The notes below the pieces were generated by a model. The model ran no database searches. It was not told the origin of the DNA and saw only the letters and a list, made by a program, of their open reading frames with translations. Made by a program: the position numbers and the translations under genes. Shown piece after piece: positions 9,752 through 63,387 of a stretch of DNA of 64,000 bases. The DNA comes from Blasia pusilla (taxonomy: Eukaryota). The stretch is from NCBI GenBank assembly GCA_050084515.1, contig CM114271.1, forward strand, positions 39,308,001 to 39,372,000, read 5' to 3'. Position 1 is the stretch's first letter. Each line of letters begins with the position of its first letter.

Positions 9752-11560
9752 CAGTTTGTTGGTGACTGCAGGCATTATTTCCCTCGTCTCAAATAAATGA
9801 AGACAAATGGAGTATGCAGGCAACAGGGAAGAACTGCAAGGTGTGGGCCCAGTTAACACTGCCTACTTCAGTTGAATGGCGGTAGCCTCAAGTTTGACAA
9901 GCCCCTCCCTGCCACAAAGCATTGACGGGTTTCCCAGGTTCTGGAGCTGCTAAAAATTGGAGGATTTTGAATGCCTATTTTGAAGTAGCAGCACTGGTGC
10001 ACTTGAGTTTCACCAGCCAATTTTGCAACATGTATGGTCAGGAACTGTGGAAGCCGCGAGTTTAAATCTAGGGTGTCTGTCTCTACATGAGATAATGAGA
10101 TGGACTCCCGTTGAGGCTCAAAAGATGAGTCAAAGTTTTTTGTCAATTTGTGTAACAAAAATTTGCCACTGTATGTTGGCCAAGTTCTGGAGTCTGGAGA
10201 GCTACTTCCAGTAAGCCGTTTTCCAAGATCTTTCTTCCTGGATCACGTGTATGGGCTATCATACTTAACTCCCTTAGAAGTTTGCTTGAAGCAGTCGGAA
10301 CATTTCAGAATGCATTGTTAATGGAAAGGAGCAGACCTTTTGTGGGAATGGTTTGATATGGATGTGCCTGATGAGGTATCCTCGATTGGAATCCATTTTT
10401 TCACTGTTGTTTTGGTGGCTAGTCATGATCTTTTGAAGTCTTCTCGGAGGGCTTTGGAATTTTTCCATTGATCTGGGTCACAATCATCACAACCAACACT
10501 CTGTGACTTGGATATATTTCAAAGGATTCAAGACAGCCAGGATCAAGTATCTAACGTGAGGCAGATATCCTTTAAGAATTGGTCCCCTGGAACGAATTCC
10601 TTGAATTGGTCCATTTTGTCGTCGATAGGTTTTCTACCTTGCCAGTGGTTCCTTGCAGCATCCAAATCATTGCTTTTTTTTATGTATTAGGAAGGTTTTC
10701 AACCCTTTTCCAACCAGCCCCTTTTCCAGTATGCTTGTTTAGTCCCATTTCAACCATTACCTTAGTGCCCTTCTGACATGGAATTGTCGATATGTTGTTT
10801 TCAGAAGGGTCGTACGAGTGTAGTTTCAAGAGAGCATCATTGTCCCCCATTTTTTGCTGTTCCCTACATTGTCCTGGAAGAAGGTTTTGCTATATTCTAT
10901 GCCAAACCGAATACTTGTAAGATGGCTGGAGTTCTGCACACCAAATTTAACTGCCAAATGTGATGTTTCGGAGGTCTTTTATGACCCTTCGAGTGGCTTC
11001 CATCAACTCATTTGAGGCTCCCAGAAGTCTCACATGTTCAAAGGATGCAGAAGATGGGTATAGCAGAAACTTCTGTATAGCCAATAGAATAACTCTGTCT
11101 TCATCCACATTTCCAGCAACCCTTTGAGAGGAATTTGACTAAAGTCCAAGACAAATGAGGAGCAAATTGAATTGCAAAGGAGCATATGTTAGCTCGTCCA
11201 CACCGTTTGAAAATAAAAAGCAGCTGGAAATTGGTTAGGTGATTGTGAGGGAACATGAAGTGCATCACATGTCTCCAAGATTATGTACTCCCTAATCATA
11301 TAGCTTACCATTGTTATTGTTAGAAAAGATTCGAGGTGCCCACTAATTTCTGTTTCCCAGATTGGTATCCAAGCATGGGTTATAAGTCGTACTTCATAAT
11401 ATCATACAGTGCAGGGATGCCTTAGCTGATATGCACATAGGGAATAGCGTCCCTTGCATACGGAGTCCGTGTATTGCTAAGTGATCAGAGTTGCATATGA
11501 TAGCAACTTTGTGACACACGAGAGGTTGGAACCTGACTTCGATGGGACTTTCTTCACCAA

Positions 11561-12158
11561 TGGTAAGTAATGTCTCTCTCAATGTCAAACCAAACCCACT
11601 CTCCTAATGAGAGGCTTGGGTTACATTCATAAGGCAAGAGACCGTAATTCCGCCGCCTCGTACCAAAAGGTTCAACAAAGAAAGATTGAGCTCTCAAATT
11701 TTCTCTCCTTGAGGTATACCCCCTTCCCCCTTCCCTCTTCCAAGCTCTCTCCTCGGTAACCTATGTTTGCATGTCACCTCCTTGGCTCTTGACCTACTGT
11801 AGTGGGTCAAGGGCCACTTCCAAAAGTGGAAAGTTGACTCTACCAAATATGGAAATTTACCCAAAATAGTAAGTTTCTCTATATGGCTCCAAATAAGCCG
11901 AAAAGAAGGAAAAACCTGCTCTCTCAAGTTTCCCAAGACCTCAGCAAGTCATCCTCGACCTCTTGAGCCTGTCCTCCTCTAACTCACGAAGATGCTCTAC
12001 CAGATCTCTCCGATCTATCCTAGAAAGTCATGACAGCTATGGTGCGCATACACATCGTTACACAACATACATCGTTGTTGAATATACACAAACACGCACG
12101 ATCCTATGCTAACTCATGGCATCCAAACAACGAGACAAGAAGTACCAAAATATCTCCA
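11561..12158 (-). repeat. 3' LTR of gypsy copy 1, preceded by a polypurine-tract candidate
   Basis: Matches 62962-63387 (same orientation) and 20009-20228, 22413-22617, 32041-32226, 32247-32370 (opposite orientation). The minus strand reads TTGGGGGGCGAT then TGGAGATATTTTGG starting at 12158; the 32247 copy also starts at TGGAGATATTTTGG. Other copies start at TGTCA (equivalent to 12035), so the exact LTR limit is uncertain. Confidence 0.7.
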
Positions 12159-12340
12159 ATCGCCCCCCAAGATGGTGGTTAGGTCCCTCTAACTCCAGAT
12201 AGCTATCTATCCCTACCTACCATGACACACATCTCTCGGACTCTAAGAGCAAAAAGGCCAAGAGCTCATGTGGCCCCATCGTTAGTCGCCTTCTTGTCAT
12301 CCATGTCACAGACACAAGTCGGAATCTAGAACTACCTACT

Positions 12341-18836: not shown

Positions 18837-19754
18837 ATAAGGAGATTGAAGTGGTCTCTCACGTGGAGACTCTCGAAACCTCGCACCACTCCGGGTAAAC
18901 CCTCTAGAGCTACTCTCAGGTCCACCACCTCCCCTCTCAAAGTCCCGAAAGGACGCCCTGATGACCCTCGTGCCCCTCTCACATGATCACTCTCAATCTC
19001 GCCAGTATTCACTCAATCACTCAATCCAACATGCGGCACTCAATCTACACTCTCTCACTAAGACGTGTGCTATGCGGCAACAAGCGGCGTGGTGCGGAAA
19101 ATCGTCTATTGTCCTATCATCTCATCGACAGGACACACCCTCAACTCTGGACATCCCACACAAGTCTATGTCCCCTAAGCCCATACATCAATGATGCTCT
19201 CAGCATCCGCACAAAACCCAATATCCCCAAATAACTGCCCAATACGCGGAATTCCTTAACATGATAAGGCAAAAGACCAGAATGGGTAACCTGAACAAAT
19301 GTCAATCGCTCCTCAGCATATGCAAACCTCGACCCCAACTCGGTCGCGAAGATAAACTCCTCCAAGCAGCAAGTCTTACTCCTCTGGTACTGATGATGCT
19401 CAAATCTCCTCAATGTGCGGTGCAGGTCCAGCGGTACGGTGCAGTACTAGCGGCATAGGACGGCTATAAACGGCATGGCACTCGAGAATGGGGTGCGACA
19501 CTCAGCGGCATACCCTCCTCAATAGCAATACACTCTGCTCCCAATGATGGTACGGCTCCGTGATCGAGACAGTGCGGTGCGGCCACGAGCGGCACGGCCC
19601 GGCAATCAACGGCACGTTGCGGCTACGGACGTCACGGTACGGTACTCGATCGTCATCGAGCGGCTACCAATCATGAAATAGCAAAGCAGAAAGAAAACTC
19701 CGGCACCATCAATCCAAAAAGGTAACTTGACCTCCGAAATAGTGCTCACAAATG

Positions 19755-21130
19755 GTCGATGCACAGCGGTCAATGTTGTGATGGTGACTAATAGCCGTCA
19801 ACAATCCGACGGTGACAGACTGGCTGACCGACGGCGCAGTGCTGGATGGACGGTGCGGGGTGACCCGGACAGAGCAGAAGGCGCGGACAGTGCAGCAGGC
19901 GTGGTCGGTCGGGCTGGGTCGCGGTAGTAGCTCTTCAACAACCGCAGCGCGGTAGCTGCCGTCAAGCGCCAGACCTCCAGGTGGCCGGTCAGCAGGGGCG
20001 CAGTAGTCAAGGAGGTGACATGTGAGCATAGGTTACCGAGGAGAGAGCTTGGAAGAGGGAAGGGGATATACCTCGAAGAGAGAGAGCGTGAGAGCTCATT
20101 ATCTCTTTGTTGAACCTCTCGACACGAGGCGGCGGAGCTATGGTCCCTTGCCTTGTGAGTGTAACCCAAGCCTTTCATTAGGAGAGTGGGTTTGGTTTGA
20201 CATTGAGAGAAACATGTGAGAGTGCTCATATTTGAGAGCTATGGTGTTGAGAGAGATTGGAGCGCATTTTACAAAGAGAAAATGAGTGAGTGAGAGAGCT
20301 TTATGGGGGAGGTCGCTGGTTTTGCAGGTTGGGATCGTATTCCCCGGTCAATGGTTCATGGGAGTGCTCACGAGAGCAAGAGCCGCTTACTTTTGACGGT
20401 CGGCTGCCCGTCAGTGCCGAGCATAGCAGCTCGACCGTGGTAGAGCAATTTGACTGCAGCACCCACAGACGGCGGCGGTTGGATCCGAGAGCAGATGCTC
20501 GGCGGCACAAGAAGGCAAAGGCAGCAAGCTACGGGGTCGGCGTCCCGGCGACGGCAGGCACCATGCCATAGAGTCGCGGCAAGAGCACGGCAGGGCGGCA
20601 TCAACCCGCGGTTGACGGCAGGTGGCATCAACGGCGACTGCAACGGACAAGACTGGGTCGGCGGCAGTCTAAGCGGGGTCGACGATGTAGTACAACCGGG
20701 TGGGCATGGCGACTGGCGGTCGCGGTTGGTATTGTGCAACTGCGCGGCAGCTTCACTCGTGGCAAGGCTGGTATAGGGCCGCAATGACGGCGAGGGCGCT
20801 GCTGCGGTAGCGGCCACGGCGCTAAGTCGGCGCGCTAGCCGACGTCGTTACACCCCCTAAAATCCGGTTGAGTCAGTAACGGCGTCTGGGCTACGTCGGA
20901 GGAAATAGCTGCGGGCACGGCAGCAGCTCTGTCGGCGGCTGTGGGCGTGGCAGATCCGGCGACTGCGGCAGCCCAGTAATCATGGTCCGTCAGTTTAACG
21001 GGCGGACGGACGCATCAGGGTCGGCGGGAGCACCGTCGTAGGAACAGTTGACCACGGTCATACAGCCCACGGCGCGGTGTAGACAGATGGCGCGTGGTAG
21101 GGCGCCTTAGCTAAAGTGACCCCCTACAAA
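19755..21130 (+). repeat. Inverted, GC-rich copy of the gypsy LTR plus 5' leader inside copy 1
   Basis: 20009-20395 is a close reverse complement of 11571-11783 and 21795-21890; the flanks stay colinear with LTR and leader sequence but are heavily substituted and GC-rich. Confidence 0.7.
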
Positions 21131-21544
21131 TCCGGGACAGGCCTATTTTGATTAACTTGATTGCCCCCTTCTGACATTGCTGCAGTTTGAGTGCTTCACC
21201 ACAACTTCCTCCTAAGATTGAGGGTCAACTCCTCTAAATTTATTTTTCATTCCACTTCTACCTCAAAGGACATGTGCCCTTGTCCTATCCACTACAATAT
21301 CAATCATTTTATTTTTCTCTACCACTCAAGAAATTACCAAGGATTTGCAATTTCTCTCACACCTTGGAACGGTGGCTATGGCAGCCCAACAAAAATGATC
21401 ATAACTCCGTGCACCAATCTCCAAATCATGCACTCTTTCTTCAGTAGCATACACGACTTCTAGATCTACAACCGTGTCAAAACGGTTTCTCCATGTGATT
21501 TTTCACCAAAAACTCACAGGGATTGTCGTGCCGCCCAACGTCTC

Positions 21545-21602
21545 TTTCTCCTACGCAAAATTTTGCAGCGCGGAAGCGCTGCAAAATTTTGCGTAGGAGA
21601 AA
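21545..21602. repeat. Perfect inverted repeat, 27-bp arms with a 4-nt loop
   Basis: tttctcctacgcaaaattttgcagcgc-ggaa-gcgctgcaaaattttgcgtaggagaaa. Confidence 0.95.
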
Positions 21603-22412
21603 AAGAAATCAGCGCCTCCACGCTGATTCCTCCCAACAGAAATGTAAAACCTGTCACCAAACAAACCAGCAAGCTACACAGTGCTCCCGAGAGCACCAGC
21701 ATGGAGCAATCCGCCCCCATATTCAATTCCTATAAAAAATTGGGTAGCGCTTCCGCGCACCACTTTTCCACATTAAAAATCAGCAAAATAAACACTGAAA
21801 GTAAGCGGCTCTTGCTCTCGTGAGTACTCCCATGAACCGTTGAACGGGGAATACGATCCCCTACCTGCAAAACCAACGAGTGACCAGCGACCCTAAACCT
21901 GCTCTCTGAGGTTTCCCAGAACCTCATAAGGTCATCCTCAACCTCATGAGCATGTTCTCCTCTACTCACGAAGGTGCTCTACCAGATCTCTCCGATCTAT
22001 CCTAAAAAGTCATGACATACGTCTTAGAAGTAGTTTTTAGTGAATTGTGAGAACAAAAATGCTCTTAGGATCAGCATCAGAAAATTCTGCAAAAATATAA
22101 AACATCAAATGAAGCATGGAAGAGTTTGACATACAACTTGACATGCCAAAACGTTGTGACTAAAATGCATCTTTTGACCTTCCATTTCGTGCTCTTACAC
22201 ATTGCTACATCGTATATATTTTTGTCACATTCACACAAATATATGCTGACAACACACACATAAGTCATGACATTCATATGAACACCATCTCATATAGAGA
22301 CCACACAATGAAAATCAGTTGGGAAACACACCACTCTTTGATACACTGAGTAACAAATGTGCAAAATCCACATTAAAATGAGGAAATCCAAGTCTTATTC
22401 AAGGATGACCAC

Positions 22413-22617
22413 TATCACTTCTTTTAGGAAGGATCAACGAGTATCCATAGGATGCTTCCGAGGAGATTGGAGGACATCCTCAAGAGGTCGAGGATGACTT
22501 GTTGAGACCCTAGGTAACATAAGAGAGTAGGTTTTTCCTTTATTTTGGCTCATTTGGAGTTATGTCAAGAAACCTACTATTTTGAGTAAATTCCTATCAA
22601 TAACTCTTTAGGAAGTG
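22413..22617 (+). repeat. 5' part of a gypsy-family LTR, opposite orientation to copy 1
   Basis: caagaggtcgaggatgacttg..gagagtaggtttttcctt..gaaacctactattttgagtaaatt..ggaagtg matches the reverse complement of about 11815-12035. Confidence 0.8.
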
Positions 22618-24099
22618 CGAGAGTACACGGTCTATGCACTACTTTCACAACTATCCAAACTGGTGGAATCTATTTCTTCGTCATGTGTGGTTTGCCACTC
22701 ATCTGTAGGCTCCTCCATGTCTCCAAAGACTTGGTTGATCCGATATGGTTGTTTCACTAGCTTGTTTCCAATCAAGTCATGTGGAGTACTTTCTACCAAG
22801 TGCCCCAATTCAATGGATTCTTTGACAGAGTTGTAATGAAGTACATATAGACCTTGAGATGAGACCCACAAATGAATCAATGTCTTTCCATGATATCTAC
22901 AAGCTTTGGAAAAGGATCGACAAATCAAGTGGGTGGTATTCCTATCCACCATGTCATCCACATGCCCACCACATACTAGAATTTTTCTCTTCATCCATGT
23001 CAACCCTCCATTCAGATATATTGTCAGGGACAAATACTACCCTCAGCTGACCAAACATGGTTGGATATGGAGTGGGTGACGGACTAGTTGGGAGTGGTTT
23101 AGGGTTCTACCTTCCCTCACATTCTTCCAATACAATTTCTTTTCCCTCAAAACAGCCACCGAGCTTGATTTACTCTAGAATAGATCATGGTTGTTAGGGT
23201 CATGCAATCTTCCATCTTGGATGGACAAGGACAACCAATCTATGTGTACATATTTAACACCCCGTTCATTCCTCTCGGAATTCAGGATGATCCATATGAA
23301 ATTCTCCAAAACTCTTACCCAATTCCTAGAAATGCCATGTGTGGCGTCATGGAGACAATCAGTCTCTCTTCCACCCAATTTCACAAAGTTTGTCTTGAGC
23401 CGACACCATTCATCATGGGGAAATTTTGGGGAGGCCATGATGCAGGCTACAATCCTTGCAAAAAGAGAGGTTGGCATCGCACCCGATGCGCATCCGGGTG
23501 AGGTCTCATGGCACATTAACACTTTAGAGACACCGCCACTTGGGAGTGGGGGAAGATCAACAATTCTCATTTTGGTATTGTGTTGCCAATGGTTTTCCAT
23601 GATGGACTACCTAGCTCTAAAGCTATACTTGCATGATTGGATATGGTAATGGATGACGAATGAATACAGAATTCCACCTGCAACCAAACATATCCTAATC
23701 AAGAGCCTAATCACAAGAGTCGTTTAGAAACCACCACGATTACATTTCATTCTTCCAAAACAAAAAAACTGCATAATGTTGATGCAAAACTTGATATTAT
23801 ATTGCTCAAGTTATTCATGAAATCAATGGCTTTATGCGTCCTTCCAAACACGAAACACTTTACAGGTTGATGGATTGGTTTTCGCAATTATGGCCATTCG
23901 ATCAAAATTTCAAAAGATTGGAACTCTCAAAATCAGAGGGTCGGTAATGACGAGTCTCTATACGAAGTCATACCACCTACCTAGTAAGCATGTTTAGAGC
24001 CTCAACCCTCTTTATATCAGAGGTGGCTACCTTACACTCTCCACTAAAATGCCTCGGAATTTTGTTCAGACACGAATCTCTCTTCCGCCTACCTGAAAA

Positions 24100-24756
24100 T
24101 CAAATCCATGAAATATGATCTCTCAAAGGAGTCTGAAGTGTCGGATCAACTTTGTGTTGGTGGCAATAGAACCACCAACTATCCTCACCACATGCAGCAT
24201 GGTCATATATAATCCGATCGCATGCATAATCCTTGCTCATAGCCTTCTTCAAGCAAGTCTAATGCCATGCAGTGGGGCACCTAAGACAATAGACCATGTC
24301 CTCCAACAACCCGTTATCATGCTTATGGCATTCTGGGCGATAATGCATGGGGCAAGACTCCACTCCCGTAGGCAAACAAGTAAAGCACAAAAACCTCACA
24401 CAAAAGGTATTTGGGCACTTTCTCACGCGAATCCCAAAATCCTTGCTCTCTACAAAACTCCCCTCTAGACCACACTTGGCACACCTGGCGATTTGCTTCA
24501 CACAATCCTGGCACAACCAGTTCCCCTTGTGGTTTGGTGGGAGGTTGACCCCTGGACAAGAGTTCTCTTTAGCCCTCGCTAATTCTGTAGTTGCGTGGAA
24601 GTGTCTGGCACAAGGCCCGTCGCAAACAACCAGGTCTTCCCTATCATCACACATTGCACAAATGTGGGTTGTCATCTGCAAAACCTGGAGTGCACTATAT
24701 GGCGCATAAGTGCTCACCTCGGGGGTTTTCTTGGCTCGGTATTTCGGGCGCGCCAT
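24100..24756 (-). pseudogene. EDM2-like triple PHD-finger module with one internal stop
   Basis: CAMCDDREDLVVCDGPCARHFH..C..WLCQDC..CAKC..RKCPNTFC..CPMHY..VYCLRCPTAWH*TCL..FYCHQHKVDPTLQTPLRDHISW follows the cysteine pattern and the C-terminal YC..H..D..L.TP.RDH motif I recall for the EDM2 PHD region. Confidence 0.75.
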
Positions 24757-25484
24757 CCTTGTGCGTTGGTTACTCCTATATTTCGAGACAAAAGACAATA
24801 AGATCACTATTAGGTGTAGAAATTCAATGGATATTGAATGTCCATGATTCAGGCAAGGAAAAAAAAAGCTTAAAAAATGGATGTCAATGGATGTGGAGGT
24901 TAGCTATAGCCTTCACGATACTCGGATTTCCAATAGTCAATCCTTTGGTACCTGTACATAGAACAAGTTAAAGTTAAGTAGCATAAGAAGAAATTGTTTC
25001 TACAGAAATCATTACTTCTTATTAATTATTTGGTTGCATACATCCCCGTAATAGGGTCTTTTATCGTCCAAGGTCAAGAGTGTACACACACCATGGCCCC
25101 TCAAAATAAGCCCAATTCCATCAATGACAAAAAATAACGGTGACTCAATCAATGATTGGAAAAAATGGATCCTCTTATTGTCTTATTGTTTACAATTACA
25201 AATGTTATCCATAGGCCATATGAAGGGCCTCAAGTTAGGCTACGGATCTGACTCGTTGCCATACTGCAGCATCACGGCATATGTTTAGGCAACATATGCA
25301 AACTTTCCCTGAAATTTTTCTACGACTTGAGCGAATGCATACTAAGTCCCCCAAGGTTACAACTTCCCAAGTATTATAATACTCAAGAATAACCTCTACC
25401 GTGTGGCCACCAATAGAACGCGCATATTCAATGATGGCTCGTGCCTTCCTAACAATGGGATGATCCTCCCCAGGGAGAACCCCC

Positions 25485-25940
25485 CTACATCATGACACAT
25501 ATAAAGAGTGACTTTGCCCCAAGCCTTAGCCATGCTAATAGTGCTCCTCTATCCTCCCTCCACATAACAATGTCTAAAAATTGCACATACATATGGCGAT
25601 CTTCTAAGCGGAGTAGCCAATTCCTAGTCTGCCTTTGTCGCCTATTTGGGGTCCAATAACGGTCAGAGTAAGCATGAAAGTAACAAATGTTTGCCCTTGC
25701 ATATTGTGGGAGGGCAAGGATACGGTCCGAGAGACTAGTAGGCCTGCTCATGGGAAAGATCTTGACCTTCACTTCAAAAGGAAGGCTCCTTAATCTGGAC
25801 AAAAAGTATCCTGAGTCATTTTGAACCATTGGTTTAAACGAAACACCCGCCATCACTCTGATGCCATCCAGAGACATGAAGGATGTTACATTCCTAAGAC
25901 TTCTCTCTTCATGGTGCACAAGGCTAGCCTTGTGCACCAT
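25485..25940 (-). CDS. Hypothetical ORF with F-box-like motif(s), probably degenerate
   Basis: 151-aa ATG-initiated ORF; LRSLPFEVKVKIF resembles the F-box start L..LP.E....IF, with a weaker second copy ILALPQYARANI. Confidence 0.3.
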   Translation of the reverse strand: MVHKASLVHHEERSLRNVTSFMSLDGIRVMAGVSFKPMVQNDSGYFLSRLRSLPFEVKVKIFPMSRPTSLSDRILALPQYARANICYFHAYSDRYWTPNRRQRQTRNWLLRLEDRHMYVQFLDIVMWREDRGALLAWLRLGAKSLFICVMM

Positions 25941-26014
25941 GAAGTTTTGTTGTCATTAAATACCGGGCAGTTGTAGCGCTACAACTGCCTGATATTTAAT
26001 GACAACAAAACTTC
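25941..26014. repeat. 74-bp spacerless palindrome with 2 mismatches
   Basis: gaagttttgttgtcattaaataccgggcagttgtagc|gctacaactgcctgatatttaatgacaacaaaacttc. Confidence 0.95.
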
Positions 26015-26420
26015 TCTCTCCATTCAAGTGAATACCCTAAATATTTACTAAAGTACAAAAGAGTAGTTCAAAACCAAGTAGACAAAGAAGTCACCATACA
26101 GATCGTCCACCTCTCCCTCAAGTATCCACCAATGGATCTTTTCATGGATTGGTACAGGGGATCTCTGATATTAAGGAGGGATTGTTTTTGTGTGGAAGAT
26201 TTTTGTTATTGCACTATATGACGCACATGTCCATTAAGATATCCAATAAGTTCCTACGAAAAAATCCCATGAATTTCAATCAGATTTCATACCTTTTTAA
26301 CCACGTCCAGGGAAAACATAGCTTCCAGATTTTTATGCATGCTTACTATATGCTGTGACTCCTTCAAAGCTCTACCAGCCACTAACGATTATAACACTTG
26401 AATCTCTGCACCAACACTTT

Positions 26421-26423
<3 letters not shown>

Positions 26424-26498
<75 letters not shown>
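26424..26498. repeat. (AG)n microsatellite
   Basis: About 37 perfect AG units, ending 1 nt before the copia LTR. Confidence 0.97.
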
Positions 26499-26499
<1 letters not shown>

Positions 26500-26503
<4 letters not shown>

Positions 26504-28326
26504 CTCATTAAGAAATATCGGTCGTAGCCTTGTGACCATAGACCCGGCGCCCTAGTTGGATGGTGCTTGAGACTGGGATGAGTGTAGAGAGAGAAGCAAG
26601 TGAAGAGTCCATAGAGGATCCGTGACCAGTCATGAGAAGCGGTGTTTGATCAGTTCTGTCTTAGAAGAGTGTCCAAGAAGCATTGTATTTCTATAGAAGG
26701 ATATCTGTGTGACTAGCAAGAGGTATCAAGCACGCGCCCAAAGTGTATGTGCTTTCATGTGCTTGAATTCTTACTCCAATTGAGGGCGTAAAAATTGAGA
26801 GGAAAGCGAAGTGAATCTTGTCAACTAGTAATGGCTCATCTTAGAGCTTCAGATATTCCTAAGTTTGATGGAACTTATTTTCAAGTATAGAAACAGAGAA
26901 TGATATTGGTTCTCAGATCTGAAGCACTTATGGAGATGGTAGAGGGAGCAGAAACGAAATCCCTAGAACCTGCTGCAGCAACTCTATGGATCAAGAAAGA
27001 TAGTCTTGTCTCCTCTATCATTGCAAACTTGCTAGAGAACAATCAATTCTCTCTCCTGAGTGGTTGCTCGACGTCTGCTAATGCCTAGAAAATAATGACG
27101 GATCTTTTCGAGCAAAAGGACCAGGTAACACAAATGTATCTAAAAGATCAGTTGTCAACATCAAGATAAGAGAGGGTGAAAGTGTACTAAAACACATTCA
27201 TCGCTTGACATCCATTCTGGATCAATTGACAGTTGTTGGGGCTGTCCTCAATGAAGAAGAGAAGGTTTTAGATCTTATGCGAAGCATGCCTCAAAGTGAC
27301 ATAAGTTTTTTGATTTCTATTTGGGTCGAGCCCAATTTGACTATGACAACTCTCATTCCTCAATTGTTGCAAGAAGAAACTCATATGAAGAATATGGGTG
27401 GGAATGTTGAGTCATCAACAACACTCTATATAGGTGGTAATCAAAGATTCAATCAAGGAAGAGGAAGCTAGAGGAAGAAGCTTCTGATCACATCAATTCG
27501 CTATTTCTATTGTAAGCAATTAGGACACATATTGAAGAATTGTCCTAAGAGATTGCAGAAGCTACATCACAATAATAATGTTGGGACTAAAATCTATGTA
27601 ACAACCTTGACAGCCTCAAATAGTCCAGATACAACTTGGTACGTGGACACTAGAGCCACTCAGCACATGGCTCGTGACCTCATCACATTCACCACTTTCC
27701 GAGCTAGTAATACAGATCAGCAATAGGTGGTGTATTTGGGAGATGACACAACCTAGCCTATTCAAGGAAGAGGGTTAGTAAGCATCAAGCTACTGAGTAC
27801 AAACTATCATCCCAGATGTGTTGTATGTCCCTGGTCTCAAGAAGAATCTGTTCTCAGTGGATCAATTTGATCAAGTAGGAGGACATGTCGCAATCAAGAA
27901 TCGTCGTTGTACCCTGAACAACAAAGCTGGGGTAACAATAGCAAATTGTAGGTCGAAGAACAAGTTGTATATGCTAGGTGAGTCCATAACACCTAAGCAA
28001 TCAACCAGAGATTCTACCTGCAAGGAGACCACTGCTCTCTCTACAACAACTAATGTTGTTTTGTGACATGAGAGGCTTGGCCACATTAGCCAAGCAAGAC
28101 TCATACCACTTCAAAAACAAAATTTTCTGAAGGGTGAAACTTTGACAACTTTCCTCTTTGTACCACATGCATCAAGTCCAAGCAAGTAAGGGAAAAATTT
28201 CCAACAGATGGTGGTAAGAGAGCTGAAGATGTTCTTGGCTTAGTTCATTCTGATGTTTGTGGACCAATGAGCACATGTACATTCAATGGAGCTAGATATT
28301 TCTTGACTTTTATAGATGATTTGTCA

Positions 28327-28406
<80 letters not shown>

Positions 28407-30700
28407 ACTGAAGCAGAAATCAGAAGTATATCAGAAGTTTTTAGTGCACAAAAACTTGGTAGAGAATCAGATAGGAAGAAAAATCAGATGTGATAATGGA
28501 GGAGGATACACTTCCATTGATTTCAATTCACATTTTCAAGAGCATGGGATTAGAAGGCAGTTTTCAGTCCTTCACACTCCACAACAAAATGGAGTAGCAG
28601 AAAGGAAAAACATCTGCTATACTTGCAATGCTAGAACAATCAGGTCTCGAAAAGTCTTATTGGGATGAAGCAATAGTGACAGCAAACTATTTGCAGACAA
28701 GATCACCAACAAAGGCTCTGGAGGGTGTTAAGACACCATATGAGGTTTGGTACAGAGAGCCTCCAGATCTTAGTCACGTTAGAATTTTTGGATGTACAGC
28801 TTTTGCACTAATTCCTTCTTCTCAGAGGAGAAAACTAGATTTAAAATCAGAAGAATGTATTCTTCATGGTTATGATGAGCAAAGAAAAGGATACATGTTG
28901 CAAAAGAAATTTGACAAAACCATCAGCACTTCTAGGGATGTAAAATTCCAAGAGGGCAAAGTGGCATTTGTTGGTTTGCGTAAAGAGGAGGACGATTCTT
29001 TGTTTGAGTTCCCCAGAGTCCTGGGGAATGATTTTAGTGGGAGCCTTACCAACTCCAGCATCGACTACCACTAAAGGAAAAGGTGTACTAACATCATGTA
29101 TGAGCACTCCAAGTACTAGTAAGAGTGCTAGTGAGATTCCAACATAGAGTGGTTTTCTTGATGTTGCACCACAACAAGTTCTGAAGGAGCCACAGATTGT
29201 TCAAATAGAGTCCAACAACAAAATTCCAACAAAAGCAAGTCGCTGGACCAAGAAGATCTAAAAGGGTTTCAAGGCAAGTGCAGAAATATGATGCGGCACA
29301 TCAAGAATCACACGCAAGGAATCAAGATAAGGAGAAGTTGACTCAGGGGTTAATGAGTCAACAAGAGAAGCATAACAATATTGAAGAACCCGAGACTTAT
29401 GAAGAAGCTCTCTCTGGGCAGCAAGCAGTTCATTGGAAGGATGCAATGGAACAAGAGCTCGAATCGATGAGGTTGAATAACACTTGGTCACTCACTTCAC
29501 TCCCACCAGGTAGAAAGCCCGTGGGATGTAAATGGATTTTAAAAATAAAGTACATGGCAGATGGGAGCATTGAAAGGTACAAAGCAAGATTGGTAGCAAA
29601 AGGCTACTCACAAGTTTATGGTGTAAACTACACTGAGACATTCTCACATGTAGTCAAACCAACTTCAATCCGAGTTATGCTTGCTCTAGCAGCACAATTT
29701 GATCTTGAAGTACATCAAATGGATGTAAAGATACATTTCTGAATGGTATACTTGAGGAGGAAGTATACATGGAGATGCTAGAGGGGGTGTCACATCCTAC
29801 TTGCCAAGATCAAGTTTGTAGGCTACACAAGTCCATTTATGGACTGAAATAGTCATCAAGACTATGGTATCAAATGATGGATAGATTTCTGATCAAAATA
29901 GGATTTTGGAGATGTGGTAATGACACAAATGTTTACATCCTAAATGATCAGGAATATTTTTGTTCAATTAGCCCTATACGTAGATGACGTTGTACTAATT
30001 AGTAATTGTACACCACAGCTAATATGTGTCAAAAGACTCAATGAAAAAGGAGTTCAGAATGACAGATTTGGGAGAAATCCATCATTTCCTTCAAATGGAA
30101 GTAACTAGGAATAGAAAGGAAGGATGGATTAGACTATCTCAAAGTAGGTATGTCAAAAATAAACTTGCAAAGTTTAAAATGTCAAACTGCAAACCTGTAG
30201 ATACACCAGTAGAATCAGGGAAGAAGCTATGAAGAAAGGATTCCCCGAGGAATGAAGAAGAAAGAAGCTTCATGAGAAAGATACCTTATAAAAGTGCAGC
30301 AGGTAGTATGATGTGGGCAATGGTTTGTACCAGGCCTGACATTTCTTTTGCTCTGAGTATGATTTCTAGATATGTGGCTGAACCAGGTCCAGCCCATTGG
30401 GGTGTTGTGAAAAGGATTTTTAGATATCTAAAAGGACAAACTTAGGACTTGTGTACATTAGGAAAAACAGCCTAGAACCATTGTATGGTTACTCTGATGT
30501 TGATTGGGGAGGTAATCAGGATGATCGAACATTAACCTCTAGTTTTTGTTTCTTGTTAGGACACGCAGCTGTATGCTGGGGAAGCAAGAAGCATAAATTT
30601 GTTGCTCTATCCACTACTGAAGCATAGTACATGGCTCTAACTAGAGCTCTCACAGAGGCAACTTGGTTACGAAATTTTTTAAGTGAGATTTGGGGTTATA
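26500..30700 (+). mobile_element. Ty1/copia LTR retrotransposon, degenerate and 3'-truncated
   Basis: Candidate 5' LTR TG..CA at 26500-26718, degenerate iMet PBS aggtatcaagc at 26721-26731, gag IPKFDGT from 26830, protease WYVDTRATQHM, integrase HSDVCGP/TPQQNGVAERKN, RT GCKWILKIK..YKARLVAKG..QMDVK, YVDD near 29977, RNase H to about 30690; copia domain order; no 3' LTR. Confidence 0.92.
28329..28404. repeat. (AT)n microsatellite inside the copia integrase
   Basis: About 38 AT units interrupting FIDDLSRY..YLLKQKSE. Confidence 0.97.
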
Positions 30701-30992
30701 CGACTTTGGGAAGCATGTGATCTGGGATGAGTTTTGGGGTTATGTTGTCGGCCATCAAGTAGGACTGGAACGCCAAGAGATGCATGGGAGTAAACAGTAC
30801 CCTACTACTCATAAATGTTTTTGTGAATCTACCAATTTTGCAGTAGGGAAACTAGACCACATCGAGGGTTTTATGACAATTATCATGAGACTAATTCGAG
30901 GACCTTGGTCCCATTTTCCAGAGAGATTGTCAAACCTTAGAGTTGGGGCAATAAGAAATAACGCCCATGGTTGAGTCGTCTGATGTTGGAAA

Positions 30993-31120
30993 TCAAGTTG
31001 GGTGGAAGGATTTAGGCGCACTAGATGTTGGGCATCAAAGAAGTACAACAATTCAAGTTGGGTGGTAAGGTTTAGGCGCACTAGATGCTCGTCATCAAAT
31101 AAGTGTAGTTGTTCAAGTAG
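30993..31120. repeat. 60-bp tandem repeat, about 2.1 copies
   Basis: tcaagttgggtgg..tttaggcgcactagatg..catcaaa.aagt at 30993 and 31053, with a partial unit at 31113. Confidence 0.85.
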
Positions 31121-32040
31121 GCCACGAAATTGACAGGATATGTCTCTTGAGTTGTAATGTAGGACATCAAACTAATTTGACATATTTTGGAACAAGTGAT
31201 TCCAAGAACCAAATGGATTTGGCAGAAACGAGAAAGAGAGACAAGAAATATGCAACCCGACTTCGTGAAATCTGTACCTGATCGGGTTTGTGCACTCTCT
31301 CCACCACAGTGTGCAATCCAAGGCCTTATCTGAACCTTTCATGAAGATGGAGCTGGCAAAAGTGATTTTCCACCATCGTAAGGCAGAAATCACGCGGCTT
31401 CCACGCTCGAGCTATTCAAGCCTTCAAGCCTTCTTCCTTCTTTCTCGCGTAGAAGTCCCGAGAGTATCAAAAGTGAAATAGCAAACTTGGACCAGAACAA
31501 TGTCTACCATGACAAAACAAAAGGAACTGAAAGAGCATGAGAGACCGCGCAAAAGAGAAAAGGCGCGTTCCCTGTATTCCCGCCTTGGATGACAGCATGA
31601 TTCAACAAAGTGCTGCAATAGCTAAAGTAGGTCTCTAGCTACTTAGGGTTAACTTGTTTTCCTTGTATTTTCATGTTATCAAATGATCTCAACTTTCTAA
31701 ACCTTAGTTCATTTTAGTCTTCTTTGGCAACACCTACTAGCACCCCTTTTATATATTCCATGTCAACCAACCTTATAGTGGCTTCCTAATAGTCTCAAAT
31801 AGGGCTTATCATCGTTCATAATAATAAAGAAATTCACAAAATATTGCCCAACATCTCTAAGAAAAAAAAACTCTTCCCTCCTCTATGAGTTTAACCTAGT
31901 CATTAAATGTGACTCGAGGATCATATGAGTCATTCATGAGTCAATTGACCTGTTTTAGAGTAACTAGGAGTAGTTCAAATGACTCTTAGTAACATGAGTC
32001 ACTAACACGTGGGTTTAAAATAGCCCCTTTTCTACTAGTG

Positions 32041-32470
32041 GAGGGAACTTACGAGCATCGATTACGCTGGAGAGAGCTTGGGAGAGGGAAGGGAGAAAGC
32101 TTTAGAGTTCATTCTCTCTTTCTTAAACCTCAAAATCATGGTCCTCCTTGCCTTATGAGTAACCCAAGCCTCTCAATAGGAGAGTGGTTTGGTTTGACCT
32201 CTGAGAGATGGAGATTGCGTGCACCATTCGAGTACTTTTGATTCACTGGAGATATTTTGGTTCATGATTATTTCAATATTCAAATGCCATGAGTGAGCAT
32301 GCTATCTTGTTTGTATGTGCTTATAGTCAATGACAACAATGTATGTTACGTAGCAATATGTATGCGCATGACAACATCGAGCACAAAATTAATTATACCT
32401 ATGGTGGGGATGTTTGAGCTACCTTATATAGTGAAGATACTCTTGCTACCTTACATAGATGTCATGACTT
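32041..32470 (+). repeat. 3' part of the split gypsy LTR (32041-32226) followed by a second LTR-start fragment (from 32247)
   Basis: ggagagagcttgggagagggaaggg..gtaacccaagcctctcaataggagagtggtttggtttgac matches the reverse complement of 11571-11780; 32247-32370 matches the reverse complement of 12043-12158. Confidence 0.75.
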
Positions 32471-59490: not shown

Positions 59491-59902
59491 TGCACAAGAC
59501 CAAGTAGTGACCAAATAGGCTTTGAATGTGTTGAAAAATTTTAGTGTTATCAAGTTGGGTTTGTGCATATCATCTAGTGAATGTGTTGAAGAGTTTTGGT
59601 ACTATTCAAGATGTATAATAACATGGGTTGAATGTAAAGCCTCAAATCGAGACCACTACGTTAATGCTTCTGTTTGCATTAGACATCCTAAAACTTGTTT
59701 GTATAGTTCTTGACTGTACATGTTGGCATCCTATTTGTGCAGGGTGTATTGAAGGAGCCCATAGGGAAGTGACTGCCCTATTGCAGGCCATTGGATTTGA
59801 CCACTAGTGGACTTCTAATCCTTTTTGTGCATCACAAAGAGTAAGAGCCAGTGATTGTTCTCTGCCATAGGTAAGAATTTTTGAACACCTCACACACACG
59901 CA

Positions 59903-60450
59903 ATGGCAAATGTTCCCTTATTAGATTTGTACTCTTATGTTGAGCATCATCGGATGGATCCCCCATGCTGCTTTTCTTGTGATGAGGGAGGTGATGTTAT
60001 ATTTTGTGATGGTCGCCATTTTCACTGGATTGGAGGTGGCATCCCCACCAACCTAGATAGTGGCAAGGGTAAGACCTACATCCATGTTGTGCTCCTTGGA
60101 AATCACGACGAGAGTGGACCTTGGGTATGTGACCTATGTGCTAATGACAAAGCCGTTTTTTTCTCTTGTGGGCTGGTTGGTCTTGTTGTTGGACATACTG
60201 AGTTTGAGACACGACTCATCAAGTGTGCTCACGAGGATTTTTACTCCTTTTATCCCCCGAGCTGTGTGAGGATCCGCTTACTTGTTGGAGGACTGCCGTA
60301 GACTCACCTCGAGGATAACATAGTGCACAACCCTCTTGTTGCTCCTGATGCACTCATCTGCTCGCGTCTCTATTGTGATGCGTGCAAGGTATATCATGAT
60401 GGTATATATGACTTAGTGGAGTGCCATAGATGTCCCCGTGCTTGGTGTTA
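59903..60450 (+). pseudogene. Second EDM2-like triple PHD-finger module, one internal stop, truncated by gypsy copy 2
   Basis: CFSCDEGGDVIFCDGRHFH..WVCDLC..FSCGLVG..IKCAHEDFYSFYPPSCV..*..ICSRLYCDACK..LVECHRCPRAWC. Confidence 0.65.
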
Positions 60451-63387
60451 TGATCAAACCCCATGAGGCAAGAGATACTTGTGAACATGTTGAACTCTCT
60501 AGAGTTCCTATCCCGTTATAAGTCACGCCAACTCCTAAACTCTGCAATGAAGTTGTGCAACTCTTTCGTGCATATAGCACTCAAAAACCTATGCGGTCCT
60601 CTACCCGGGTCTTCCATCTCGTACTCCCAGGCATCAAGAGCAGTAACAGTGTGCGGTGATGCACTAACCAATTGCTCTATGCTCTCCCCCTTGTTTGACG
60701 ATGACACAGAAGGAGGTCAAGTCAGTTTCTCGTGTGGAGACCCTCAGAACCTCACACCACTCCGCGTATAACCTCTAGAGATACTCTTAGGTCCACCACC
60801 TCACCTCTCAAAGTCTCGGAAGGACGACGTGATGACTCTTATGCCCCTCTGATGCGATCACTCTCAATCTAATGAGTAATCCCTCAATCACTCAACCCAA
60901 ACATGCGGCACTCAATCTACACTCCCTCTCATTGAGACGTGTACTATGTGGCAACAAGCGGTGTGGTGCGGCAAATCAGCTGATCTATCATCTTATCGAC
61001 ATAACATACCCTAAACTTTGGACATCCCACACATTTTTATATCCCCTACACCCATACAGTCATGATGCTCTCAGCATCCATACAAAACTCATTATCCTAG
61101 AATAACTACCAAATACCCAGAATTCCCTCACACGTGCAGGGAAAACGAGCAGAATGGGTAACCTAACAACAATGTCGATGTCACTCCTCAACAACTGCAA
61201 ATTTCAATCCCAACTCGGTCATGACGACCAACTCTTGTAATCAACAAATTCTACTCCTCTAGTACTGACAATAATTAACTCTCCTTGATGTGCGGTACGG
61301 GTCCAGCGGTATGGTGCGGCACAGGCAACACAAAATGGCTACAAACGACACGGCCCTCGGTGTTGGGATGCGACACTCAAGGGCATATCCTCCTCAATAG
61401 AAACACCCGCTTTGTCCCCTAGTGATGGTATGGCTTCGCGATCGAGATGGTGTGGTGCAGCCATTAGTGGCACGATGCGCCAATCAGAGGCGCATTGGAG
61501 TTACGGAAGTCACGGAACGGTACTTGATCGTCATCGAGCACCTACCAAAAACTATGCATAGCCAAGAGGAAAGAAAACTACGACCCTATAAATCAAGATA
61601 TCACCTACCATCACTAGAAGGCACTCGAAAATAATCGGTATGCGACGGTCGATGACGACACAATTGCACTGGTTCTGCACCGTGCAAAACGATGATCAAA
61701 GACTCACTCTCGAGTCTTGGTTGTTGTTGCTAGTACTCAGTGGATTTTAACTCAAAAAAATTGACTATCTTCAGTGCCTACTGTCCAATCAACAACGGTG
61801 ATCAAGGTTGTTGACAATGGCCAACAGATAGAGCAAGGACAACCCGAATGCAGGGTCCGGGGAGTTTTTTCGTGACAACCGGTACATTTCCGGTCTCTAC
61901 AAAATTGAGCGGAAATTTTTGAAGATTTCATCATTCCAGCCAACTAAACATATACAAATACAAAGGACACCCTCCCTAAACCCTCGGTTTTTGGCTGGTA
62001 AGTGACAAACTGAATCGGAAATTCTCAAATTCTTCCAGCCAGCTCAACACGGAACCCCGGTTCTCCCCGGACATTGCCCGAATGGACACTGAAAGTCAAT
62101 AGTAATTATAATAACTCTCATGTTGGTAAATATGACTCTATTTTAACCTTGTTCAAAAAGTCAAATTTTTTTCCCACTCCACTAACTCTTAAACTAAGGG
62201 TCAACTCACTAAAATTGCTCACTTTTGGCTAACTAATACTCCACTAAGCACCATAAATATTGGGTCAACACCCACTAAATAAAGTTTCCACTTGCTTTAA
62301 CCTCAAGATCCTAAGTTTGACTTTTTCTTTCCATAATAATACAAGATTTTTGAATTTTTTTACCTCAACTAAGAAGTTACCAAGAATTTCAAATTTTGCT
62401 CTCCATACGGTGGTTATGGTAGATCCGTGGAAATGATCATAACTTCTTGCTCACATGTTTAAATTTTGCACGGTTTCTTCCATAAGATGCACAACTTCCC
62501 GATCTTCAACTTGGTTAAATTGGTTTCTTCATTAAATCTTCCATTAAAATTTGACAGGAATTGTCGTGCAGTTCACAATCTCCTTAAAACTACACAAATT
62601 TTGGCAGCGCTTCTGCGCTAATTTCTCCCAAAAAAATTGAAAACCTATAAAAATAGCAATCAGCAAGCTACACAATACTCCTAAGAGCATTCACACGGAG
62701 CAATCCGCCCCCACACTCAATTTCTAATGAAAATTGAAGAGCGCTTCTGCGCTCCACTCTACCACACGAAAAATCGACAAAGCAGAATGCGCAAACAAGC
62801 AACCTTTGCTCCGATGAGCACTCCCATGAGTCATTGAACGGAAAAAACTATCCCCAACCTACATGAATAGCAAGAAACCAACAAGCTCCTCCATTCAAGC
62901 TCTCTCACTCCTTTATCTCTCTTTGTAAATCAATCAAATCTTTCTCACAACAAGCTCTCAATGGTGTGCGCTCTCTGTCTCTCTCTCATGTCAAACCAAA
63001 CCCACTCTCCTAACGAGAGTCTTCGGTTACACGCACAAGGCAAGGAGGACCATAGCTCGTCTGCCTCATGCCAAGAGGTTCAACAAAGAGAGAATGAGCT
63101 CTCAAGCTCTCTCTCGTGGAGGTATACCCTCTTCCCTCTTCCAAACCCTCTCCACGATAACCTATGCTTGGAGGTCAAATCCTTGGCACTTGACATGCTG
63201 TAGCGGGTCAAGGGTCACTTCCCAAAGTGGATACTCAACTATACCAAAAACAAAAACTTATCCTAAATAGTAAGTTTCTCAATATGGCTCCATATGAGCC
63301 GAAACGAAGGGGAAACTTGCTTTCTCAAGTTTCTCATCTTGAGGCTGTCCTCCTAGATCTCGTCGATCTATCCTACCGGAGGTGACA
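60450..63387 (-). mobile_element. gypsy copy 2: 5' LTR, leader and start of gag only
   Basis: 60480-61590 is colinear with 18611-19710, 62250-62870 with about 21215-21880, and 62962-63387 with 11561-12035; ends in ..TGACA at 63387. Confidence 0.88.

What the first reader, a model, noticed from the sequence alone, without database searches (positions are those of the whole stretch)
24100..24756. EDM2-type histone-reader module carried inside a CACTA-ended element
Seen: a compact, intron-free triple-PHD coding stretch that continues through one stop into FYCHQHKVDPTLQTPLRDHISW, inside a 9.4-kb block that interrupts an LTR and ends in a CACTA TIR. Known: Arabidopsis EDM2 uses its PHD fingers to read H3K9me2-containing marks and, in the ASI1-AIPP1-EDM2 complex, allows full-length transcription across intronic heterochromatin. 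Inference: a DNA transposon family may have captured only the reader part, without the EDM2 C-terminal methyltransferase-like domain, as an anti-silencing factor, decoy or targeting module. I know of no description of such cargo. This copy is decayed.
Basis: partly seen in the sequence, partly recalled or inferred. Interest (0 to 1): 0.8.

Follow-up and report, generated by a model that had tools for sequence, protein, structure and literature searches.

The report
Stand-alone EDM2-type PHD reader, repeated copy
The stretch is a slightly broken copy of a small plant gene that encodes only the histone-reading zinc-finger part of the EDM2 protein; it belongs to an unannotated gene family and sits in DNA repeated about a hundred times in this genome, but its link to the nearby CACTA transposon end is not shown.

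Summary
Minus strand 24756..24100 is an intron-free 218-codon frame with one TAG. It keeps 27 of the 28 Cys/His columns conserved in its family. Its named relatives are EDM2 proteins of bryophytes, lycophytes and angiosperms, at E 1e-8 to 1e-15. Its best hits are unnamed stand-alone proteins of 166-245 aa with the same start and end, at E down to 1e-54. These form their own clade (SH-aLRT 99) beside liverwort and moss EDM2-like proteins.

No other EDM2 exon lies in the window. A second, more decayed copy lies at 59885-60454. Whole-genome reads put the 3.6-kb unit around the frame at roughly 100 copy-equivalents. RNA reads cover the frame alone, on its own strand, and carry letters of other copies.

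The 9.4-kb block does split an LTR-like repeat and ends exactly in CACTAGTAGAAAA. However, it has no left end and no transposase. A copia fragment and 1 kb of low-copy DNA lie between the gene and that end.

Verdict: a repeated reader-only EDM2-type gene family is real. CACTA carriage is unproven.

The parts
24100..24756 (-). Intron-free frame for a stand-alone EDM2-type triple-PHD protein (218 codons plus stop); a pseudogene copy
   Evidence: frame. (177 HMMER hits, best 1.2e-54). (27 of 28 conserved Cys/His columns kept).
24259..24261 (-). In-frame TAG at codon 166; full-length family members have Y, F, H, V, L, I or R here
24337..24339 (-). Codon 140 is Arg where all 10 full-length family members have Cys (the Cys just after the conserved His, opening the third finger)
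22618..26203 (.). Mid-repetitive unit that carries the frame; its class and true ends are unresolved
   Evidence: WGS depth 30-56 per bin from 22534 to 25836, with a spike of 146 at 23268-23634 and 16 at 25837-26203. Low-copy bins read 0-5.5. The 28 reads at 99% or better over 11 kb give a single-copy depth of about 0.4.
22408..22617 (-). Left part of the split LTR-like repeat (matches reference copy 12043..11815)
32041..32228 (-). Right part of the same LTR-like repeat (matches reference copy 11781..11559); 33 nt of the repeat are missing between the two parts
   Evidence: loose ends at 32053 carry the uninterrupted repeat.
32028..32040 (-). CACTAGTAGAAAA terminal repeat, exactly at the right junction of the block
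31925..32001 (+). Three copies of ATGAGTCA, a subterminal repeat of the CACTA-type end; none occurs in 22618-26203
   Evidence: 9 matches in the window, 3 of them here; 1 of 100 shuffles reaches 9.
26204..30700 (+). Copia-type retroelement fragment (gag 27082-27471, integrase 28138-29074, RT 29209-29742); no matching 3' LTR
   Evidence: Pfam. (no similarity between 26100-27000 and 30600-32040). (depth 6-17 over the coding part).
30701..31708 (.). Low-copy spacer between the copia fragment and the CACTA-type end
   Evidence: depth 5.5, 4.1 and 2.2 in the three bins from 30608 to 31708.
59885..60454 (+). Second, much more decayed copy of the PHD module; it abuts a fragment of the same gypsy family
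   Evidence: 13 of 14 protein queries hit it, E 3e-12 to 0.06; stops and several Cys positions lost; 60479-61579 matches 18609-19699.
22632..23606 (-). Two frames downstream of the PHD frame with a weak BRCT-like signature (23606..23175 and 23036..22632); a lead only
   Evidence: PTCB-BRCT E 0.0017, below cut-off. (Atlas 0.87, a lead only). (no RNA reads here).

Best explanation
The frame is a lightly decayed copy of a gene family that encodes a small protein of about 220-230 aa with no introns. The protein consists of a short basic N-terminus (MARPK..AKK) followed only by the EDM2-type PHD module, and it ends just after the conserved ...RDHISW motif.

The family is old. It forms its own clade next to bryophyte EDM2-like proteins, and it has intact members on short contigs in other public data.

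In this genome the gene lies in a unit of about 3.6 kb present at roughly a hundred copy-equivalents, so it has been amplified with, or as part of, repeated (probably mobile) DNA. Other copies, not this one, are transcribed at a low level on the coding strand.

Inferred mechanism: intact copies make a nuclear zinc-finger protein that binds modified histone H3 tails as the EDM2 PHD module does. Because it has no effector domain, it would act by occupancy. It could compete with host EDM2 or other readers, or serve as an adaptor on heterochromatin-marked chromatin.

The CACTA-type end 7.3 kb away is a real transposon end at the edge of the same inserted block, but nothing ties the gene to it.
For: Shown:
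- Frame and defects.
- Homology: 177 hits at E<=1e-3. The best are stand-alone proteins of 166-245 aa covering residues 3-218 of the query, at E 1.2e-54 to 2e-23. EDM2-named proteins of Selaginella, Physcomitrium, Neltuma, Iris, Wolffia and Syzygium follow at E 1e-11 to 2e-8.
- A profile search finds 14 short family members, none named beyond 'hypothetical protein', all on contigs of 1-5.7 kb.
- In the tree of 77 rows the 16 short rows form one clade (SH-aLRT 99, stem length 1.68). That clade sits inside a group (95) with Marchantia, Riccia and Physcomitrium proteins. Angiosperm EDM2 forms a separate clade (96), and green-algal PHD proteins fall outside.
- 28 Cys/His columns are kept in at least 9 of 10 full-length members, although the 19-row family alignment has a mean column identity of only 32%. 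This indicates long-term constraint on the protein.
- Copy number: WGS depth is 43-53 over the frame and 30-56 over 22534-25836, against 0-5.5 in low-copy bins and an estimated single-copy depth of 0.4.
- At 2 of the 4 listed variant sites in the frame, the letter that most genomic reads carry encodes the residue conserved in the family.
- RNA: in two stranded runs, depth is 4.1 and 6.6 in 24369-24735 with the first mate on plus, against 0.2 and 0.1 on the other orientation. Depth is 0 in 22901-23634. At 24178 all RNA reads (4 of 4 and 2 of 2) carry the other copies' letter.
- A second decayed copy lies in the window.

Inferred: histone binding and action by occupancy. This rests on EDM2 biology (PMC7529245, passages read: EDM2 has 2 1/2 atypical PHD fingers and binds H3K9me2) and on weak fold likeness to H3-tail readers.
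Against: - The class of the carrying repeat is unknown. I found no terminal repeats, LTRs, poly(A) tail or transposase for the 3.6-kb unit, so mobility is inferred from copy number alone.
- Depth counts local matches at 85% or better, and 81% of laid DNA reads run on into unlike sequence. The figure of about 100 copies is therefore rough and may include fragments.
- The terminal 330 bp of the CACTA-type end has, by my own decomposition of one bin, a depth similar to the gene unit. A shared family is therefore not excluded.
- No dN/dS could be computed, because DNA of other copies was not available.
- Pfam hits of the window frame are all below the curated cut-offs.
- The structural matches are weak (best Foldseek E 5.7e-3; best Z 4.4).
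- No binding data exist for this family.
Confidence: 0.55

Rival explanations
1. One reading: the gene is cargo of a CACTA (En/Spm) transposon. The element inserted into the LTR-like repeat, later took a copia insertion, and lost its left end by deletion.
For: - The block splits one LTR-like copy, and its right edge is exactly CACTAGTAGAAAA followed inward by three ATGAGTCA subterminal repeats.
- 33 nt of the LTR-like repeat are missing at the left junction, as a deletion that also removed a left end would leave.
- The terminal 330 bp seem about as abundant as the gene unit (my decomposition of bin 31709-32075).
- Gene capture by Pack-CACTA elements is known (PMC6379663 and PMC8903248, search listing and abstracts only).
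Against: - Only one end is present, and no target duplication can be read.
- No transposase was found in the 16 frames scanned.
- The subterminal motif is absent from 22618-26203.
- There is no inverted similarity between 22618-23100 and 31600-32040.
- The 1.1 kb next to the end has 10-20 times lower depth than the gene unit.
- The copia fragment lacks a 3' LTR, so the picture of a clean nested insertion does not hold.
- The second copy at 59885-60454 has no CACTA end nearby.
Confidence: 0.2
2. A host gene family rather than transposon cargo. The stand-alone PHD gene is an ordinary nuclear gene, as in Marchantia. It was multiplied here by segmental duplication or by hitch-hiking in a repeat-rich region, and this copy is one of its pseudogenes.
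For: - Marchantia has an annotated 280-aa PHD-only relative (P0072), and Miscanthus has a 287-aa EDM2-like protein (P0048).
- The family shows long-term protein constraint.
- Transcription is confined to the frame.
Against: - About 100 copy-equivalents at 85% or better extend at least 1.5 kb to the left and 1.1 kb to the right of the frame. That is unusual for a host gene.
- Both copies in the window lie in or against gypsy-family sequence.
- None of the 14 family members comes from an annotated genome, as expected if annotators mask them as repeats.
Confidence: 0.15
3. An accessory frame of an LTR retrotransposon: the 3.6-kb unit is a very long LTR or untranslated region of the adjacent copia element, or of the gypsy family around it.
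For: - Depth is 30-67 from 22618 to 26937 and falls to 6-17 over the copia coding part, a ratio like that of LTR to interior.
- A primer-binding-site-like TGGTTCTCAGA lies at 26907, just before gag (read; the canonical primer-binding-site motif is recalled, not from a call).
- The neighbouring gypsy integrase itself ends in a PHD finger.
Against: - There is no second copy of the unit after the copia pol.
- RNA reads of the copia interior (8-27 per orientation) do not extend into 22901-26203 on the copia strand.
- The gene is antisense to the copia element.
Confidence: 0.08

Closest known systems
EDM2 (ENHANCED DOWNY MILDEW 2) and EDM2-like proteins of land plants
   Same: Homologous PHD module over its whole length (query residues about 30-216). 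E ranges from 1e-15 (Riccia) to 1e-8 (angiosperm proteins named EDM2). The Cys/His pattern is the same.
   Different: It has no N-terminal RFD-like region, no acidic or PGR regions and no N6-adenine-methyltransferase-like ELP domain (domain list from PMC7529245, passages). It is about 220 aa against 1200-1400 aa, has no introns, is multi-copy, and forms a separate clade on a long stem.
Short PHD-only EDM2-like proteins annotated in genomes, e.g. Marchantia polymorpha 280-aa hypothetical protein (P0072) and Miscanthus 287-aa 'EDM2-like' (P0048)
   Same: These are also proteins that are little more than the EDM2-type PHD module. P0072 groups with the liverwort proteins next to the short family.
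   Different: They lie outside the 16-row clade. Profile scores are about 100 bits against at least 216 for family members. Their N- and C-termini differ. Nothing seen here suggests they are repeated.
PZP and PHD5-C5HCH histone H3 readers (BRPF1, JADE1, AF10; NSD1/NSD3)
   Same: Best structural look-alikes of the predicted model. Pfam places the fingers in the NSD-type PHD families.
   Different: The matches are weak (Foldseek E 5.7e-3 or worse; Z 4.4 or lower, mostly over one finger). There is no sequence hit to any solved PHD protein below E 0.4.
Pack-CACTA / Pack-TYPE transposons and transposon anti-silencing proteins (VANC of VANDAL elements)
   Same: Only as a model. Pack-CACTA elements move captured host coding DNA. 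VANC shows that plant transposons can encode proteins that counter silencing (PMC6379663, PMC8903248, PMC5735166, PMC10398659: search listings and abstracts only).
   Different: No pair of CACTA ends surrounds the gene. The gene is a whole, conserved, intron-free frame rather than a fragment. VANC is unrelated in sequence, and per the abstracts it acts by binding noncoding DNA of specific elements, not by reading histones.

Membership tests
EDM2 / EDM2-like proteins | Atypical PHD-finger module (2 1/2 to 3 fingers) | tested here: met
   HMMER E 1e-8 to 1e-15 against EDM2-named and EDM2-architecture proteins. 27 of 28 conserved Cys/His columns are present.
EDM2 / EDM2-like proteins | C-terminal N6-adenine-methyltransferase-like (ELP) domain | tested here: not met
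   The frame stops 4 codons after the module. tblastn with 7 long EDM2-like proteins finds no other part in the 64 kb at E<=1, apart from a single PHD finger in a gypsy integrase.
EDM2 / EDM2-like proteins | N-terminal RFD-like region before the PHD module | tested here: not met
   Only about 30 residues precede the module. The RFD region that Pfam finds in P0016 has no tblastn match in the window.
EDM2 / EDM2-like proteins | Binding of H3K9me2-marked chromatin | not testable with these tools
   Known for Arabidopsis EDM2 (PMC7529245, passages).
CACTA (En/Spm) transposon | Inverted CACTA terminal repeats at both ends | tested here: not met
   One exact CACTAGTAGAAAA lies at 32028-32040. There is no partner on the plus strand with up to 2 mismatches. 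The left junction reads CGAGAGTACACGG.
CACTA (En/Spm) transposon | 3-bp target-site duplication | tested here: inconclusive
   33 nt of the target repeat are missing at the left junction, so the duplication cannot be read.
CACTA (En/Spm) transposon | Subterminal short repeats near the ends | tested here: met
   Met for the right end only: ATGAGTCA occurs three times in 31925-32001. None occurs in 22618-26203.
CACTA (En/Spm) transposon | TnpD/TnpA-type transposase genes (autonomous copies) | tested here: not met
   No transposase family was found in the 16 frames of the block scanned against Pfam. The only hits are copia gag, integrase and RT, plus a weak BRCT. Non-autonomous elements lack these genes, so this does not exclude membership.
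Stand-alone EDM2-type PHD family (unnamed, defined here) | About 220-230 aa, basic N-terminus, three fingers, stop within about 15 residues of the ..DH(I/V)S.. motif, one clade in the tree | tested here: met
   Alignment. Profile score 328 bits against 130 or less for EDM2-like proteins. Clade support 99. Nearest members are P0177 and P0179, at 56% identity (P0177).

The most novel reading that the evidence does not exclude
A mobile element family of a land plant carries and expresses a complete stand-alone EDM2-type histone reader. This would be a transposon-borne chromatin reader that competes with the host's EDM2 system or steers the element to heterochromatin. It would be a protein-level counter-silencing or targeting device of a kind not described for plant transposons.
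Probability: 0.15. Interest if true: 0.8.

Novelty: new variant of a known kind. Interest (0 to 1): 0.5.

Why it matters
EDM2 lets plants transcribe through heterochromatin inside genes and tunes H3K9me2 at thousands of transposons (PMC7529245, passages read). A conserved, expressed protein family made of the reader module alone, amplified about a hundredfold in one genome, would be a natural dominant-negative or adaptor form of that system. It would give a direct handle on what the module reads.

If the carrier proves to be a transposon, this would be a case of mobile DNA carrying a host-type chromatin reader. If not, it is still an unannotated plant gene family that repeat masking hides from genome annotation: none of the 14 members found has a name beyond 'hypothetical protein'.

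My five paper searches found no description of such a family or cargo (term search in PMC13547354).

Tried and rejected
- The whole genome is not held, so copy number, flanks and dN/dS could not be taken from an assembly.
- The word-indexed search with the single frame found nothing. The HMMER scan and the profile search did.
- Earlier-findings look-ups by place, sequence and words gave nothing relevant.
- The run index listed no RNA holder for 22618-26400. The lay of raw RNA reads was used instead.
- The metagenome scan returned 8 loci. One is a family member with one stop (L001), one a full EDM2 mRNA-like contig (L002) and one an EDM2-like fragment (L003). The other five are weak single-finger matches. 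None gave genomic context.
- The BRCT lead downstream of the gene rests on Pfam E 0.0017 (below cut-off) and Atlas 0.87 (a lead only). The homolog search was empty and the two frames show no mutual similarity. I kept it as a note only.
- Repeat search in 22400-27100 found no terminal inverted or long direct repeats for the unit, only two small palindromes at 25907-26014. Rfam gave only a sub-threshold miRNA-like hit on that palindrome.
- No poly(A) run follows the frame, so I did not pursue LINE-type retroposition.
- Fold search: Foldseek found no match at E<=1e-3, and VIA gave Z 4.4 or lower on single PHD fingers. This is consistent with PHD fingers but adds little.
- No sequence match to a solved PHD structure below E 0.4.
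- Supplementary tables of the Pack-TYPE catalogue (PMC8903248) might list captured PHD or EDM2 fragments. They were not open to me.

Full report
**What is there**

On the minus strand, 24756..24100 reads from ATG to TGA as 218 codons with one in-frame TAG at codon 166 (24259-24261). The product begins MARPKYRAKK, holds three cross-brace Cys/His fingers and ends ...TPLRDHISWI. Pfam sees only sub-threshold NSD-type PHD matches: PHDvar_NSD at E 3.7e-4 and PHD-1st_NSD at 2.5e-3, both below their cut-offs. The language-model atlas points, as a lead only, to plant clusters with NSD-type PHD families (0.88).

**Relatives**

HMMER against 1.84 billion cluster representatives gave 177 proteins at E<=1e-3, 31 at <=1e-10 and 3 at <=1e-30.

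- The seven best hits are short proteins of 166-245 aa (E 1.2e-54 to 2e-23, 37-45% identity). They cover the query almost end to end.
- Longer proteins then follow, matching only through their PHD module.
- Cluster look-ups name these as ENHANCED DOWNY MILDEW 2 in Neltuma, Iris, Wolffia and Syzygium (4 of 10 clusters looked up). The same name appears in Selaginella, Physcomitrium and Miscanthus (3 of 10).
- Others are hypothetical proteins of Riccia, Calypogeia, Marchantia, Diphasiastrum and others.
- The long hits P0013, P0016 and P0018 carry the EDM2-type methyltransferase-like block in their sequence. P0016 also carries an N-terminal RFD domain. This matches the published EDM2 architecture of 2 1/2 atypical PHD fingers plus an N6-adenine-methyltransferase-like ELP domain (PMC7529245, passages read).

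**A family of its own**

A profile of seven short proteins found 14 members at E<=1e-5 among 750 candidates. Eleven come from Logan assemblies, two from JGI and one from another source. They lie on contigs of about 1-5.7 kb, and none has a name beyond 'hypothetical protein'.

Full-length members are 220-231 aa, with one of 245 and one of 278. They share the basic N-terminus and stop within about 15 residues of the ..DH(I/V)S.. motif. Against the family profile they score at least 216 bits, while EDM2-like proteins score 130 or less.

For the tree I used 77 rows. These were 76 proteins whose best profile match spans at least 150 profile positions, plus the read-through translation of metagenome locus L001. 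I left out shorter matches and 20 near-duplicate cluster members. The result (quick method, SH-aLRT only):

- The 16 short rows form one clade (99) on a long stem (1.68).
- That clade sits inside a group (95) with Marchantia, Riccia and Physcomitrium proteins, and then lycophyte EDM2.
- Angiosperm EDM2 forms a separate clade (96), and green-algal PHD proteins lie outside.
- The tool warned that long branches meet at this clade.

Twenty-eight Cys/His columns are kept in at least 9 of 10 full-length members, although the 19-row family alignment has a mean column identity of only 32%. This speaks for long constraint on the protein. The short gene is therefore old, not a recent clipping of EDM2.

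**State of this copy**

- It keeps 27 of the 28 Cys/His columns. Codon 140 is Arg where all ten full-length members have Cys.
- Codon 166 is TAG.
- The conserved GG after the first CxxC reads RE.

It is a young-looking pseudogene.

**Not a piece of an EDM2 gene, and not single-copy**

tblastn with 14 proteins (7 short, 7 long) found no EDM2 part other than the PHD module anywhere in the 64 kb. Thirteen of the 14 queries also hit a second locus at 59885-60454 on the plus strand (E 3e-12 to 0.06). This copy has stops and has lost several Cys positions. Only the frame is alike between the two loci.

I laid about 1 in 100 of a whole-genome short-read run of the same species label on 21800-32800 at 85% likeness or better. 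Depths below sum both orientations.

| Region | WGS depth |
|---|---|
| The two bins over the frame | 53 and 43 |
| 22534-25836 | 30-56, with a spike of 146 at 23268-23634 |
| 25837-26203 | 16 |
| Copia coding part | 6-17 |
| 30608-31708 | 5.5, 4.1 and 2.2 |
| 32443-32800 | 0 |

The 28 reads at 99% or better over 11 kb suggest a single-copy depth near 0.4. The gene unit therefore stands at the order of 100 copy-equivalents. This is rough, for two reasons: 81% of laid reads run on into unlike sequence, and most matches are below 95% identity.

At two of the four listed variant sites in the frame, the letter carried by nearly all genomic reads encodes the family-conserved residue. Better copies therefore exist in this genome.

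**Expression**

Two stranded RNA runs give depth 4.1 and 6.6 in 24369-24735, and 1.0 and 1.5 in 24002-24368, with the first mate on plus. The other orientation gives 0.2 or less. This fits RNA of the minus strand under the usual library convention.

Depth is 0 over 22901-23634, and there is a little signal at 25837-26203. At 24178 every RNA read (4 of 4 and 2 of 2) carries the other copies' letter, and only 3 and 2 RNA reads in the whole 11 kb are 99% alike or better. The family is therefore expressed at a low level, and probably not from this locus.

**The block and the CACTA end**

Self-comparison shows an LTR-like repeat of the neighbouring gypsy family, with copies at 11570-12043, 20005-20215, 21895-22017 and 62976-63333. 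One further copy, in minus orientation, is split:

- 22408-22617 matches reference 12043..11815.
- 32040-32228 matches reference 11781..11559.
- 33 nt are missing between the two parts.

Genomic reads with loose ends at 32053 carry the uninterrupted repeat. The right junction is exactly the start of CACTAGTAGAAAA, followed inward by three ATGAGTCA repeats within 80 bp. So a CACTA-type end is really there.

- There is no left end.
- No duplication is readable.
- No transposase appears in 16 scanned frames.
- The subterminal motif is absent near the gene.
- The two edges of the block show no inverted similarity.
- Between the gene unit and the end lie a copia fragment without a 3' LTR and a kilobase of low-copy DNA.

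By my own decomposition of bin 31709-32075, the last 330 bp of the end may be about as abundant as the gene unit. The depth data therefore neither join nor separate them. I rate CACTA carriage at about 0.2.

**What the carrier might be**

I found no terminal inverted repeats, LTRs or poly(A) tail for the 3.6-kb unit.

- An LTR-retrotransposon accessory region is possible but poorly supported. No second copy of the unit follows the copia pol, and copia-strand RNA does not run into the unit.
- A plain host family is possible, since Marchantia has a 280-aa PHD-only relative. It does not easily explain the copy number and the repeated flanks.

**How it would work (inferred)**

An intact member is a zinc-finger protein of about 25 kDa with a basic N-terminus and no effector domain. 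The predicted model (mean pLDDT 72, pTM 0.67) resembles H3-tail readers only weakly. These are the BRPF1, JADE1 and AF10 PZP domains and NSD1/3 PHD5-C5HCH, with Foldseek E at best 5.7e-3 and Z 4.4 or lower.

By homology with the EDM2 module, it should bind modified H3 tails and act by occupancy, as a competitor or an adaptor. Nothing here tests this.

**Novelty**

Searches of the paper library for EDM2 with PHD and transposon terms, for CACTA with PHD capture, and for EDM2 in non-seed plants found no description of a stand-alone EDM2-type PHD family or of such cargo. A term search inside a 2026 atlas of Arabidopsis transposon products also found none. Supplementary catalogues of captured genes were not open to me.

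I file it as a new variant of a known kind: a reader-only relative of EDM2, repeated in this genome.

Noticed in passing
window 59885-60454 (+): Second, strongly decayed copy of the stand-alone PHD module (stops, several Cys positions lost). It lies 25 nt from a fragment of the gypsy family (60479-61579 matches 18609-19699).
   Followed up: partly
window 12362-13465 (-), finger at 12368-12484: The integrase frame of the Ty3/gypsy element at 11570-22017 ends in a single canonical PHD finger (Pfam PHD 27.4 bits, above the cut-off). From recall, related elements often carry a chromodomain at that position. One paper search on this point found nothing relevant.
   Followed up: partly
window 23606..23175 and 23036..22632 (-): Two frames 0.5-1.5 kb downstream of the PHD gene, on the same strand and in the same repeated unit, have a weak BRCT-like signature (Pfam E 0.0017, Atlas 0.87). 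No RNA reads and no homologs were found.
   Followed up: partly
window 26521-26606: An 86-nt piece is very abundant in both RNA runs (765-887 reads with consistent loose ends on each side, and joints that go back 86 nt). It is also abundant in DNA. It looks like a fragment of a highly expressed repeated RNA. Rfam found nothing.
   Followed up: partly
window 25907-26014: Two adjacent near-perfect palindromes (38 and 74 nt) flanked by a 17-nt direct repeat, MITE-like. There is a sub-threshold Rfam mir-5014 hit. Other genomic copies lack 55 nt here.
   Followed up: partly
window 23415-23500: A short segment shared with a much more abundant repeat (296 reads with one consistent loose end at 23415). 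It causes the depth spike in the bin 23268-23634.
   Followed up: no
window 43558-46779 (-): An uninterrupted 1073-codon frame for an LRR receptor-like kinase (LRR, LRRNT_2 and protein kinase domains). It is the only evident ordinary host gene in the window.
   Followed up: no
window 56790-57446: Tandem repeat with a period of about 350 bp (2-3 units, 74-87% alike).
   Followed up: no
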